Positions 2,066 to 3,310 of a stretch of DNA of 17,220 nucleotides are shown here, piece after piece. The position numbers were made by a program, and so were the translations under genes. This stretch comes from a virus (taxonomy: Duplodnaviria > Heunggongvirae > Uroviricota > Caudoviricetes). The notes beneath the pieces were generated by a model. The model saw only the letters and a list, made by a program, of their open reading frames with translations, was not told the DNA's origin and did not search any database. The DNA is taken from the IMG/VR virus record IMGVR_UViG_2609460354_000003; one strand, given 5' to 3'. Position 1 is the stretch's first letter. Every line of letters starts with the position of its first letter.

Positions 2066-2449
2066 TTACCTCCAGATGCGTTGCTGGAATGTGCGGGACG
2101 GACGCCTGACGGAGATTATCCAGTGACGATAATCGAGGCTGAGGGCTTTCTTAATCTCGTATCCGTGTCTGCGGTAGCACTGAATTAGCCACTCGGCCTG
2201 TTCTTCAGTGCATGGGGGATGCTGGAACCAGTCAGATTTGAAAGTGCGGGAACGCCGCCCGTGCCTGCTGGCAGGGGCGGCAGAGTTATCCGAATTGTAA
2301 AATTTGGTATCGTGCGCCATCTGTTTTCTCTGCTGGCGCAGCAGGTGCCAGTTGTTCAGGCTGACGGATGGATTGTAAACCAGAACGACCAGAAAAAACA
2401 AAACCCGCCGAAGCGGGTTAAGTGCGGGTGCGTTGAGGATGCCTGACAC
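2066..2449 (-). CDS. Hypothetical small protein between DUF968 gene and hok (Rem-like by position); true start may be ATG at 2320 (84 aa)
   Basis: ORF-track frame. No convincing SD at 2449. Internal ATG at 2320 would give MAHDTKFYNSD... Basic protein, function unknown. Confidence 0.4.
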   Translation of the reverse strand: MSGILNAPALNPLRRVLFFLVVLVYNPSVSLNNWHLLRQQRKQMAHDTKFYNSDNSAAPASRHGRRSRTFKSDWFQHPPCTEEQAEWLIQCYRRHGYEIKKALSLDYRHWIISVRRPSRTFQQRIWR

Positions 2450-2487
2450 ATCAGCGGTGGCGAGGGATTTCTCCCCCGCCGGGTCTC

Positions 2488-2643
2488 TTACTCCTCAGGT
2501 TCGTAAGCTGTGAAGACAGCGACCTCCGTCTGGCCGGTTCGGATTCGTACCTCGCAGAGGTCTTTCCTCGTTACCAGTGCCGTCACTATGACGGTTAAAC
2601 AGATGACGATCAGGGCGATTAACATCGCCTTTTGCTGCTTCAT
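2488..2643 (-). CDS. hokD: Hok/Gef-family type I toxin (HokD/RelF-like), 51 aa
   Basis: Hand translation from ATG 2643: MKQQKAMLIALIVICLTVIVTALVTRKDLCEVRIRTGQTEVAVFTAYEPEE, stop TAA at 2488-2490. AAGGAGAAG SD upstream. Below the 60-aa cutoff of the ORF track. Matches HokD/RelF as recalled. Confidence 0.85.
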   Translation of the reverse strand: MKQQKAMLIALIVICLTVIVTALVTRKDLCEVRIRTGQTEVAVFTAYEPEE

Positions 2644-2901
2644 AGCCTGCTTCTCCTTGACCTTTCGGTCCGTAAGAGGCTAATCTCTATGTGTCGCATA
2701 GATATGGCCTCAGATTAATGTTAAGCGTCTTGCAGGACGCGTAATGTTAACTGGGGCTTTTCTCTATCTGCCTTTTGGTGTTCATGCCTGAGACAGATAG
2801 CCTCAAGCACCCGCAGTCATTCTACTTAACTAAGATTTCCCCGCAAACCGTTTTTGTCCGGCACAGTAAATATCCAACTAAACCAATGGCGTTCGCTGTA
2901 T

Positions 2902-3081
2902 TTACCGCCAGTATTCAATGCACATGACCGCCATGAACACCCCTAAAAAAAGGGCATTTATATATCCAAATATTAATATCAAAACATCAACTTTTTCCAT
3001 ATACCTTGCTGTGAAGATGATGGGCATACATGATACGAACAACCAGAACGCAACAAACAAAAACTGCAATGCGTTTTTCAT
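2902..3081 (-). CDS. Small predicted membrane protein (59 aa, two hydrophobic helices), unknown function
   Basis: Internal ATG at 3081 of the 72-aa ORF is preceded by AGGAGG. Product MKNALQFLFVAFWLFVSCMPIIF...LILIFGYINALFLGVFMAVMCIEYWR is strongly hydrophobic. Lies in an AT-rich island. Confidence 0.4.
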   Translation of the reverse strand: MKNALQFLFVAFWLFVSCMPIIFTARYMEKVDVLILIFGYINALFLGVFMAVMCIEYWR

Positions 3082-3310
3082 TATTCCTCCTACAATCAAT
3101 GTGCAATTACATTTAAACACACCTCAATTTGGCCGGACATATAAATATCTAAACCAGAAAAAATCACTTACATAGCGTTACAAACTCTTTAGTCTAAATA
3201 TTCATCGTAAAACATTCCCCATACTTATCAGCCCGTTCTGCGCCAGGTAGCTCATTGCCTTATCTGGGAATCTGTAATCAGGTTTCCGGATGCTGGTGGA
3301 TTTTCGCGTT

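What the first reader, a model, noticed from the sequence alone, without database searches (positions are those of the whole stretch)
2488..2900. Hok-family toxin gene with a coupled upstream mini-ORF and leader hairpin, but no RelBE partner
The hok-like ORF is preceded by a 19-codon ORF (MRHIEISLLRTERSRRSRL) whose stop overlaps the hok ATG, and by an inverted repeat (TCTATG...CATAGA, about 2690-2710) in the presumptive leader. In E. coli K-12 HokD lies downstream of relBE, but no RelE/RelB-sized ORF is visible here, so the toxin may be regulated differently (sok-like antisense or translational coupling) or be a decaying remnant.
Basis: partly seen in the sequence, partly recalled or inferred. 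Interest (0 to 1): 0.45.

Follow-up and report, generated by a model that had tools for sequence, protein, structure and literature searches.

The report
Complete hok/mok/sok toxin-antitoxin locus in prophage
This is an ordinary, complete copy of the well-known hok/sok RNA-controlled toxin-antitoxin module sitting in a lambda-like prophage of E. coli; the "mini-ORF" is the known leader gene mok and the "hairpin" is the known antisense-RNA target, so the missing relBE genes are not an anomaly.

Summary
A 51-codon Hok ORF lies at 2643..2488 (- strand), identical to K-12 HokD. A 19-codon ORF at 2699..2640 has a TGA that overlaps the hok ATG (ATGA). A 6-bp hairpin at 2702..2686 holds that ORF's AUG.

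This is a full hok/mok/sok type I toxin-antitoxin locus. Rfam RF01794 matches 2812..2641 end to end (106.7 bits, cutoff 59). The predicted 420-nt mRNA folds with its 5' end (tac) paired to a 3' element (fbi), z = -8.3. The pairs are kept with compensatory changes across 105 related loci. The + strand 2693..2761 is the counterpart of the annotated SokW RNA of phage 933W.

The leader is not relE-derived. In K-12, similarity to this locus starts only about 14 nt upstream of the hok ATG, so relBE-hokD is the rearranged and rare form (6 of 131 sampled loci).

The only twist is the frame of mok. Most relatives fuse mok in frame to hok; here a net 1-nt difference makes it stop at ATGA. Published R1 mutagenesis shows that mok translation past the hok start is dispensable, and the allele occurs in hundreds of E. 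coli genomes. The finding is already known and of low interest.

The parts
2488..2643 (-). hok (hokD/hokW-type) toxin CDS, 51 codons plus stop
   Evidence: ORF list. Pfam PF01848 at 82.9 bits and PHROG 251. Identical to WP_000813254.1 HokD.
2640..2699 (-). mok leader ORF, 19 codons plus TGA. The stop overlaps the hok ATG (ATGA).
   Evidence: Sequence. It starts at the position homologous to the annotated mokW ATG of 933W (L001 1656 maps to window 2699). An ATG lies 56-58 nt upstream of hok in about 120 of 131 related loci.
2708..2711 (-). mok Shine-Dalgarno (GAGG), 8 nt before the mok AUG
   Evidence: Sequence. GAGG is invariant in alignment A2 (G102 A103 G104 G105). It is paired to the upstream box in the full-length fold.
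2686..2702 (-). It lies in the region covered by the 5' part of Sok.
   Evidence: MFE folds. Rfam consensus helix. 5 of 6 pairs show changes on both sides. The hairpin is predicted in 95 of 100 relatives.
2801..2812 (-). 5' end of hok mRNA: tac element GGGUGCUUGAGG
   Evidence: Position 1 of the Rfam model is at 2812. In the full-length fold it pairs with 2426-2438. In the truncated or leader-only fold it pairs with AAGCCCC.
2751..2757 (-). ucb / anti-SD box GCCCCAG. It sequesters the mok SD in the full-length mRNA and pairs with tac in the 3'-truncated mRNA.
   Evidence: Folds. Helix 5 is 95.8% paired with 6 compensatory pairs.
2426..2438 (-). fbi (fold-back inhibition) element CCUCAACGCACCC in the hok 3' UTR
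   Evidence: 12 bp with one bulge to the 5' end in the MFE and centroid structures. Helices 1-2 are 93-96% paired, and a U-A to C-G double change occurs in 13 sequences. K-12 hokD also retains this element.
2393..2419 (-). Intrinsic terminator of hok mRNA (AACCCGCUUCGGCGGGUU plus U-run)
   Evidence: Terminator scan.
2819..2846 (-). Putative hok promoter: -35 TTGCGG (2846..2841), 16-nt spacer, -10 TAGAAT (2824..2819), 6 nt before the mRNA 5' end
   Evidence: Read by eye. A TAnnAT hexamer sits at the same distance from GGG in the hokC-, Photorhabdus- and Erwinia-type rows of A2. It was not reported by the strict promoter scan. Inferred.
2693..2761 (+). Sok antisense RNA gene (counterpart of the annotated SokW), 69 nt. 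Its 5' part is complementary to the mok AUG and SD; the rest is a long stem-loop followed by UUUU.
   Evidence: The annotated sokW ends of 933W (L001 1664 and 1594) map to window 2693 and 2761. Fold -29.3 kcal/mol, z = -5.0.
2657..2686 (+). Putative sok promoter: -35 TTGACC (2657-2662), 18-nt spacer, -10 TAATCT (2681-2686), start G2693
   Evidence: Read by eye, 6 nt upstream of the start site mapped from the sokW annotation. Not reported by the strict scan. Inferred.
2652..2677 (-). Helix that sequesters the hok SD (AGGAG at 2657..2653): UCUU 2677..2674 pairs with GAGA 2655..2652, so three SD bases are paired. The helix lies inside the mok ORF.
   Evidence: MFE. Helix 7 is 97.4% paired.

Best explanation
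The region 2846..2393 is a complete hok/mok/sok type I toxin-antitoxin cassette of the HokD/HokW subgroup. It sits in the nin/Q region of a lambdoid E. coli prophage, upstream of the DUF968, RusA and Q antiterminator genes.

Proposed mechanism (inferred by homology with plasmid R1 hok/sok and phage Sp5 hokW-sokW; supported here only in silico):
1. A stable mRNA of about 420 nt starts at 2812 and ends at the terminator at 2419-2393.
2. In the full-length form, the 5' tac element pairs with the 3' fbi element, and the ucb box sequesters the mok Shine-Dalgarno. Neither ribosomes nor Sok can bind.
3. Slow 3' trimming removes fbi. Tac then pairs with ucb, and the mok SD/AUG hairpin becomes accessible.
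4. While the prophage is present, the unstable antisense Sok RNA (+ strand 2693..2761) pairs across the mok start region. It blocks mok translation and triggers RNase III decay.
5. Without Sok, ribosomes translate the 19-codon mok. They melt the helix that hides the hok SD, terminate at the UGA that overlaps the hok AUG, and so permit Hok synthesis. Hok then damages the inner membrane.

The inverted repeat is the conserved hairpin that holds the mok AUG. The absence of relBE is the normal state.
For: Shown here:
- Hok family membership.
- Full-length Rfam RF01794 match at 106.7 bits against a cutoff of 59.
- About 91% nucleotide identity across the whole cassette to the annotated mokW/hokW/sokW of phage 933W.
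- tac-fbi pairing in both the MFE and the centroid structure, z = -8.3.
- A switch to tac-ucb pairing when the 3' end is removed at 2446 or the leader is folded alone.
- 91.2% of cells paired against 36-48% for slid controls. 18 pairs have compensatory changes, with 0 of 500 shuffles reaching the observed value.
- The AUG hairpin is conserved in 95 of 100 relatives.
- The Sok counterpart folds into a tail plus terminator stem-loop, z = -5.0.
- The cassette is widespread.

From the literature:
- In R1, mok also has 19 codons before the hok start. Its translation is required up to the hok SD but not beyond the hok start codon (PMC9841398).
- The HokD coding sequence is toxic when expressed (bioRxiv 10.1101/2025.08.07.668861).
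Against: - No expression data exist for this allele.
- The consensus promoter scan found no sigma-70 site at its thresholds, so both promoters are inferred from position and homology only.
- Chromosomal hok loci tested in earlier work did not mediate post-segregational killing, as cited in the bioRxiv preprint's introduction.
- The mok frame differs from the majority in-frame form, so reduced coupling efficiency cannot be excluded.
- The tac-to-ucb switch appeared with the 3' end at 2446 and with the leader alone. It did not appear with the ends at 2440 or 2452, so the in-silico switch depends on the assumed processing site.
Confidence: 0.88

Rival explanations
1. Decaying or inactive remnant. 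The 1-nt net frame difference in mok relative to the in-frame mokW form is a disabling lesion, and the locus no longer expresses Hok.
For: The ATGA-terminated form is the minority: 18 of 131 sampled loci, against about 95 in frame. Several K-12 hok loci are known to be inactivated, as summarised in PMC1635323 and in the bioRxiv preprint's introduction.
Against: - The hok ORF is intact and identical to the toxic HokD.
- Every RNA element (tac, ucb, mok SD and AUG, fbi, terminator, Sok stem-loop) is intact.
- The exact 80-nt mok region lies in the >=99% identity band in 777 complete E. coli records. It occurs in 12 sampled phage contigs whose sequence elsewhere in the cassette differs.
- The same -56/ATGA geometry has arisen separately in hokC-type loci of E. 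ruysiae and E. whittamii and in Erwinia/Kalamiella loci.
Confidence: 0.08
2. relBEF remnant. The leader is what is left of a deleted relE/relB, and hok was once transcribed as the third gene of a relBE operon.
For: K-12 HokD is 100% identical in protein. In K-12 it lies in the same prophage neighbourhood, upstream of the DUF968 gene and the Q antiterminator.
Against: - The window has no RelB or RelE similarity.
- The 170 nt upstream of hok align to the hok leaders of 933W, hokC-type, Photorhabdus and Erwinia loci, not to relE.
- K-12 similarity to the window starts at 2657, about 14 nt upstream of the hok ATG, and K-12 still keeps the now functionless fbi element. This points to K-12 as the derived state.
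Confidence: 0.01
3. Intact cassette whose main role is not addiction. It might instead act as a lysis-timing aid during prophage induction, or as an abortive-infection defence against other phages. The molecular mechanism would be the same; the biological purpose would differ.
For: [quoted passage not shown] The cassette lies in the moron-rich nin region.
Against: Nothing in the sequence discriminates between these roles. This cassette also sits at a different place in the phage genome than hokW does in 933W.
Confidence: 0.4

Closest known systems
hokW / mokW / sokW of Stx2 phage 933W and Sakai prophage Sp5 (AF125520; PMC8621323)
   Same: Same cassette. About 91% nucleotide identity from the promoter region to the fbi element. 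The leader elements are the same and the Sok position is the same. It is a lambdoid prophage host. HokW differs from this Hok only at the C-terminal end.
   Different: mokW is annotated as a 70-aa in-frame fusion whose ATG lies 57 nt before hok. Here a 2-nt deletion in the hairpin loop and a 1-nt insertion (GGUCAAGG) give 56 nt, so mok stops at ATGA after 19 codons. In 933W the 3' flank after fbi differs and lacks the same terminator. The position in the phage genome also differs.
relB-relE-hokD (relF) of the Qin prophage, E. coli K-12
   Same: Identical HokD protein, hok SD, 3' UTR with fbi and terminator, and downstream neighbours (hypothetical gene, DUF968, Q).
   Different: K-12 lacks the whole leader: promoter, tac, ucb, mok start, Sok gene. 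relE ends 71 nt upstream of hok instead. This is a rare arrangement (6 of 131 loci).
hok/mok/sok (parB) of plasmid R1, the paradigm system
   Same: The same set of elements and the same geometry. There are 19 mok codons before the hok AUG (PMC9841398), tac/fbi/ucb logic, and a cis-antisense Sok over the mok translation start.
   Different: The toxin is distantly related: 44% identity is reported for HokW against Hok (PMC8621323). R1 mok continues for 70 codons, overlapping hok (PMC9841398); that it does so in another reading frame is from my memory of the sequence. R1 is plasmid-borne with proven post-segregational killing.
hokC/mokC/sokC (gef) chromosomal locus of E. coli
   Same: About 83% nucleotide identity over the hok region (rows H28-H29) and the same leader architecture (rows L015-L022 of A2).
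   Different: The Sok stem-loop lacks the extra GCGUC...GACGC extension (the gap at columns 106-123 of A2). mokC is usually in frame, but the E. ruysiae and E. whittamii copies share the window's ATGA-stop geometry.

Membership tests
[quoted passage not shown] | Small hydrophobic Hok/Gef-family toxin ORF (about 50 aa) | tested here: met
   PF01848 at 82.9 bits against a cutoff of 22, full profile 1-42. PHROG 251. Identical to PGAP HokD.
[quoted passage not shown] | Conserved structured leader of about 170 nt upstream of hok | tested here: met
   Rfam RF01794 at 106.7 bits against a gathering score of 59, model positions 1-157 of 157, E = 8.5e-24.
[quoted passage not shown] | mok leader ORF with its own SD that starts about 57 nt upstream of hok and is translated at least through the hok SD | tested here: met
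   ATG at 2699 with GAGG at 2711..2708. 19 codons run through the hok SD and stop at ATGA. The start is homologous to the mokW start. Translation itself was not tested.
[quoted passage not shown] | Long-range 5' tac - 3' fbi pairing that locks the full-length mRNA | tested here: met
   12 bp between 2812-2801 and 2438-2426 in the MFE and centroid structures, z = -8.3. 93-96% paired across 105 loci, with a U-A to C-G covariation.
[quoted passage not shown] | ucb box that sequesters the mok SD in the full-length form and pairs with tac after 3' processing | tested here: met
   Folds of the full-length RNA against the truncated or leader-only RNA. The truncated structure equals the Rfam consensus. 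Helix 5 has 6 compensatory pairs. The switch is sensitive to the assumed 3' end.
[quoted passage not shown] | cis-encoded antisense Sok RNA with its own promoter, overlapping the mok translation start | tested here: inconclusive
   The sequence and ends are homologous to the annotated sokW (2693..2761), and the fold is a tail plus terminator-like stem-loop. The promoter hexamers TTGACC-18-TAATCT were only read by eye, and the scan reported none. Transcription was not testable.
[quoted passage not shown] | Toxicity of Hok and its neutralisation by Sok | not testable with these tools
   Literature only. The HokD coding sequence is toxic (bioRxiv 10.1101/2025.08.07.668861). hokW-sokW is functional (PMC8621323).
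relBEF operon (K-12 Qin prophage arrangement) | relB and relE immediately upstream of, and co-oriented with, hokD | tested here: not met
   tblastn of RelB and RelE against the window finds no credible hit. blastn of the K-12 region matches only window 2657-2394 and 2337-1018.

The most novel reading that the evidence does not exclude
The window's allele is a natural 'minimal mok': 19 codons that end in a UGA overlapping the hok AUG. The reading-frame relation between mok and hok is evolutionarily free. In-frame fusion, ATGA stop and +1 overlap all occur, and the ATGA form has arisen independently in at least three clades. This would be natural-variation support for the R1 mutagenesis result that only translation up to the hok initiation region matters. 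It would also mean that the 70-aa 'MokW/MokC' proteins in databases are annotation by-products rather than functional products.
Probability: 0.6. Interest if true: 0.2.

Novelty: already known. Interest (0 to 1): 0.12.

Why it matters
It matters little beyond annotation hygiene. PGAP labels the gene 'hokD' and annotates neither mok nor sok. A reader who takes K-12 as the reference is therefore led to expect relBE and to see an anomaly. The comparison shows that the K-12 relBE-hokD arrangement is the rearranged exception and that the prophage cassette is the intact form. The survey of mok frames is a small but useful point for anyone annotating mok or designing hok-based containment cassettes, because the part of mok downstream of the hok start is not conserved as a reading frame.

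Tried and rejected
- The consensus promoter scan over 2350-2950 found no sigma-70 site. Both promoters are therefore only inferred from their position relative to the mapped RNA 5' ends and from conserved hexamers in alignment A2.
- The hypothesis that the leader derives from relE was rejected by alignment and by tblastn/blastn.
- Sub-threshold Rfam hits in 2300-3300 were dismissed as chance or as generic terminator similarity. They were isrK at 27 bits, ceN48, CRISPR-DR and rsmX.
- The MAFFT alignment under-counts pairing in the AUG hairpin (69.7%), because loop-length differences misalign the arms. Per-sequence folding gave 95 of 100.
- I could not read Pedersen & Gerdes 1999 (Mol Microbiol 32:1090). 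Fozo et al. 2008 is not held. A search for the Steif & Meyer 'hok mRNA family' paper returned only papers that cite it. The statement that K-12 hokD is a rearranged locus therefore rests on my own alignments, not on those papers.
- The other ORFs overlapping the region (2510..2683 +, 2775..2927 +, 2721..2810 -) were not pursued. They overlap the hok CDS, its leader and its promoter region and are most likely chance ORFs; I ran no test on them.

Full report
**What is in the sequence**

All features lie on the - strand. ORF listing and direct reading confirm three things.
- A 51-codon ORF lies at 2643..2488 (MKQQKAMLIALIVICLTVIVTALVTRKDLCEVRIRTGQTEVAVFTAYEPEE).
- Upstream of it is a 19-codon ORF (MRHIEISLLRTERSRRSRL) from ATG 2699..2697 to TGA 2642..2640. 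The stop and the hok start share the tetranucleotide ATGA.
- A 6-bp inverted repeat, UCUAUG (2702..2697) / CAUAGA (2691..2686) with a 5-nt loop, carries the AUG of the mini-ORF in its 5' arm.

The toxin matches Pfam HOK_GEF at 82.9 bits against a cutoff of 22 and PHROG 251 'MokW-like host killing'. It is identical to the protein that PGAP calls HokD, both in K-12 and in the 100%-identical genome E. coli FDAARGOS_401.

**What it is**

A gathering-threshold Rfam scan of the whole window gave a single hit: RF01794 ('sok') on the - strand at 2812..2641. It covers the model end to end at 106.7 bits against a gathering score of 59, E = 8.5e-24. As the alignment shows, this model describes the hok-mRNA leader strand and ends at the hok AUG.

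The cassette is very common.
- Megablast of 2380-2900 finds at least 80% of it in 3814 of 5426 complete E. coli genomes.
- It also occurs in 79 phage records.
- One of those is phage 933W, where the homologous locus (about 91% identity) was annotated as mokW, hokW and the antisense RNA sokW.

A three-way alignment shows that the window and 933W are colinear from upstream of the mRNA 5' end through hok and the 3' UTR. K-12 relE-hokD becomes similar only from AGGAGAAGCAGGCUAUG onward. blastn places the K-12 similarity at window 2657..2394, so it starts about 14 nt upstream of the hok ATG. tblastn with K-12 RelB and RelE finds nothing in the window.

The leader is therefore not a relE remnant. 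K-12 has lost the leader but still keeps the 3' fold-back element and the terminator. The surroundings are the nin/Q region of a lambdoid prophage. Downstream on the - strand lie a hypothetical gene, DUF968, RusA and a Q antiterminator. Upstream lie DUF7167 and ead/Ea22-like genes.

**Anatomy of the regulatory RNA**

I took 2812 (Rfam model position 1) as the 5' end and the terminator found by the scan (stem 2419..2402 plus U-run) as the 3' end. The resulting 420-nt transcript folds at -169.3 kcal/mol, against -124.6 ± 5.4 for shuffles (z = -8.3). In both the MFE and the centroid structures:
- The first 12 nt (GGGUGCUUGAGG, 2812..2801; tac) pair with CCUCAACGCACCC (2438..2426; fbi).
- GCCCCAG (2757..2751; ucb) pairs with the mok Shine-Dalgarno region CUGAGGC. 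The GAGG itself is at 2711..2708.
- Part of the hok SD (AGGAG, 2657..2653) is paired with UCUU (2677..2674), inside mok.

When the leader is folded alone, or the 3' end is cut at 2446, tac pairs with AAGCCCC (ucb) instead. This reproduces the Rfam consensus. The switch did not appear with the 3' end at 2440 or 2452, so it depends on the true processing site, which is unknown.

The annotated ends of sokW in 933W map onto the + strand at 2693 and 2761. This 69-nt RNA folds into a short 5' part followed by a long stem-loop and UUUU (-29.3 kcal/mol, z = -5.0). It is complementary to the mok AUG, the spacer and the mok SD.

I read promoter-like hexamers at the expected distances:
- sok: TTGACC (2657-2662), 18-nt spacer, TAATCT (2681-2686).
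- hok: TTGCGG (2846..2841), 16-nt spacer, TAGAAT (2824..2819).

The strict consensus scan reported neither, so both promoters are inferred.

**Comparative support**

I collected 53 loci from one genome per species and 80 phage contigs. I aligned 105 distinct full-length cassettes (A2). They came from Escherichia (several species), Shigella, Kluyvera, Pseudocitrobacter, Citrobacter, Photorhabdus, Pantoea, Erwinia and Kalamiella.

Projecting the window's full-length leader structure plus tac-fbi onto A2 gives these results:
- 91.2% of cells are paired, against 36-48% when the 3' partners are slid by 1-3 columns.
- 18 of 58 pairs have changes on both sides, with 0 of 500 shuffles reaching that number.
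- A U-A to C-G double change occurs in tac-fbi in 13 sequences.
- There are six compensatory pairs in the ucb/SD-Sok helix and five of six in the AUG hairpin.

MAFFT misaligns the variable loop of the AUG hairpin, so I also folded that segment sequence by sequence. 95 of 100 sequences form a stem of at least 5 bp that includes the AUG, with many different stem sequences.

**The one peculiarity: the frame of mok**

Among 131 hok ORFs in the sampled loci, the leader ATG lies at one of three distances from the hok ATG.
- 57 nt upstream and in frame with hok (about 95 loci). This gives the 68-72-aa (mostly 70-aa) 'MokW/MokC' fusion.
- 58 nt upstream (5 loci). This gives an overlapping ORF of 55-68 codons in another frame.
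- 56 nt upstream (18 loci). This is the window's arrangement: 19 codons, with UGA overlapping the hok AUG.

The 56-nt class comprises one HokD-type allele found in 12 of the 80 sampled phage contigs, in the window and in FDAARGOS_401. It also comprises hokC-type loci of E. ruysiae and E. whittamii, and three Erwinia/Kalamiella loci. It has therefore arisen more than once.

Relative to 933W, the window has a 2-nt deletion in the hairpin loop and a 1-nt insertion (GGUCAAGG). The exact 80-nt mok region of the window falls in the >=99% identity band in 777 complete E. coli records.

Published saturation mutagenesis of R1 hok/sok shows four relevant things (PMC9841398, citing Thisted & Gerdes 1992):
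- R1 mok likewise has 19 codons before the hok start.
- The mok start codon is required.
- Stops upstream of the hok start abolish toxicity.

A mok that ends exactly at the hok AUG therefore satisfies the known requirement. I regard the allele as functional (inference, not shown).

**Mechanism**

The best-supported account is the canonical one.
1. A stable full-length mRNA is locked by tac-fbi.
2. Slow 3' trimming releases tac to pair with ucb and exposes the mok start.
3. Sok, which is constitutively made and unstable, blocks mok and so blocks hok, and triggers RNase III cleavage.
4. Loss of Sok supply lets ribosomes translate mok, open the hok SD helix, terminate at AUGA and allow Hok synthesis.

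What is shown here is the presence, geometry, thermodynamic plausibility and covariation of all RNA elements, plus homology to an experimentally validated system. What is inferred is transcription start sites, processing, Sok action, coupling and toxicity in this allele.

For the closest relative, hokW-sokW of Sp5, toxicity, Sok-dependent protection, RNase III/Hfq dependence and a two-fold contribution to phage release after mitomycin C have been published (PMC8621323). The HokD coding sequence itself is reported toxic (bioRxiv 10.1101/2025.08.07.668861). Which biological role applies here cannot be decided from sequence. The candidates are prophage addiction, a lysis aid, or defence.

**Rivals**

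- 'Decaying remnant' is unlikely. All elements are intact, and the allele is widespread and recurrent.
- 'relBEF remnant' is refuted by the alignments.

**Comparison with the known, and verdict**

The locus passes every sequence-testable defining feature of the hok/sok family. Only Sok promoter activity and toxicity remain untested. It fails the defining feature of the relBEF arrangement. RelBE upstream of hok is the exception: 6 of 131 loci. These are four K-12-type loci, one Kluyvera locus with a divergent hok, and one locus with a divergent relBE-like pair.

The finding is therefore a correct observation of an already known, very common system. The sense of anomaly came from using K-12 as the reference. 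Interest is low. The only mildly informative by-product is the survey showing that the mok/hok frame relation is not conserved.

Noticed in passing
L002 2444-2514 (K-12 relE-hokD spacer); L028 about 1430-1500: The K-12 relE-hokD spacer carries its own 15-codon ORF (MTSLFRTEGDTSALR). Its ATG is 63 nt upstream of the hok ATG and its stop ends 15 nt upstream, next to the hok SD. The spacer and ORF are conserved in a Kluyvera sp. relBE-hok locus. There RelBE is 97-99% identical to K-12 but Hok is only about 70% identical, and the junction lies 3 nt closer to hok, removing the AGGAG. It may be a mok-like coupling ORF of the relBEF operon, and relBE may have recombined with different hok alleles.
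   Followed up: partly
window 2502-2505 (- strand): The Tyr47 codon of hok plus the next base reads UACG and is invariant in all 105 aligned cassettes. This is the motif reported as a TadA A-to-I editing site that recodes Tyr to Cys in hok genes (introduction of bioRxiv 10.1101/2025.08.07.668861).
   Followed up: no
window 2900-3250: An AT-rich stretch (GC 0.35-0.40 against about 0.55 nearby) lies directly upstream of the hok promoter. It holds a hydrophobic 72-aa ORF at 2902..3120 (- strand), or 59 aa from the internal ATG. The ORF is not annotated in the identical RefSeq genome and has no Pfam or PHROG match. It could be a small membrane-protein moron or a chance ORF.
   Followed up: partly
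window 2398-2479 (- strand): A sub-threshold Rfam hit to isrK (27.2 bits against a gathering score of 50) covers the hok 3' UTR hairpin (GCGGGGGAGAAAUCCCUCGCC) and the terminator. It is probably generic hairpin-plus-terminator similarity.
   Followed up: no
L044 about 900-1640 (E. coli ECMA0423): A divergent relBE-like pair (45-63% identity to K-12 RelB and RelE, with relE apparently split into pieces) lies upstream of an N-terminally incomplete hok match (residues 5-51). It looks like a degraded second version of the relBE-hok arrangement.
   Followed up: no
L003 8690-10038 (the FDAARGOS_401 genome that matches the tested stretch 2380-2900 at 100%, beyond the window's low-coordinate end): Beyond the Q antiterminator, the matching prophage carries a DNA methyltransferase and three tRNA genes (Ile, Arg, Arg). 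From my own knowledge this layout is typical of Stx-converting lambdoid phages. I did not check whether stx follows.
   Followed up: no
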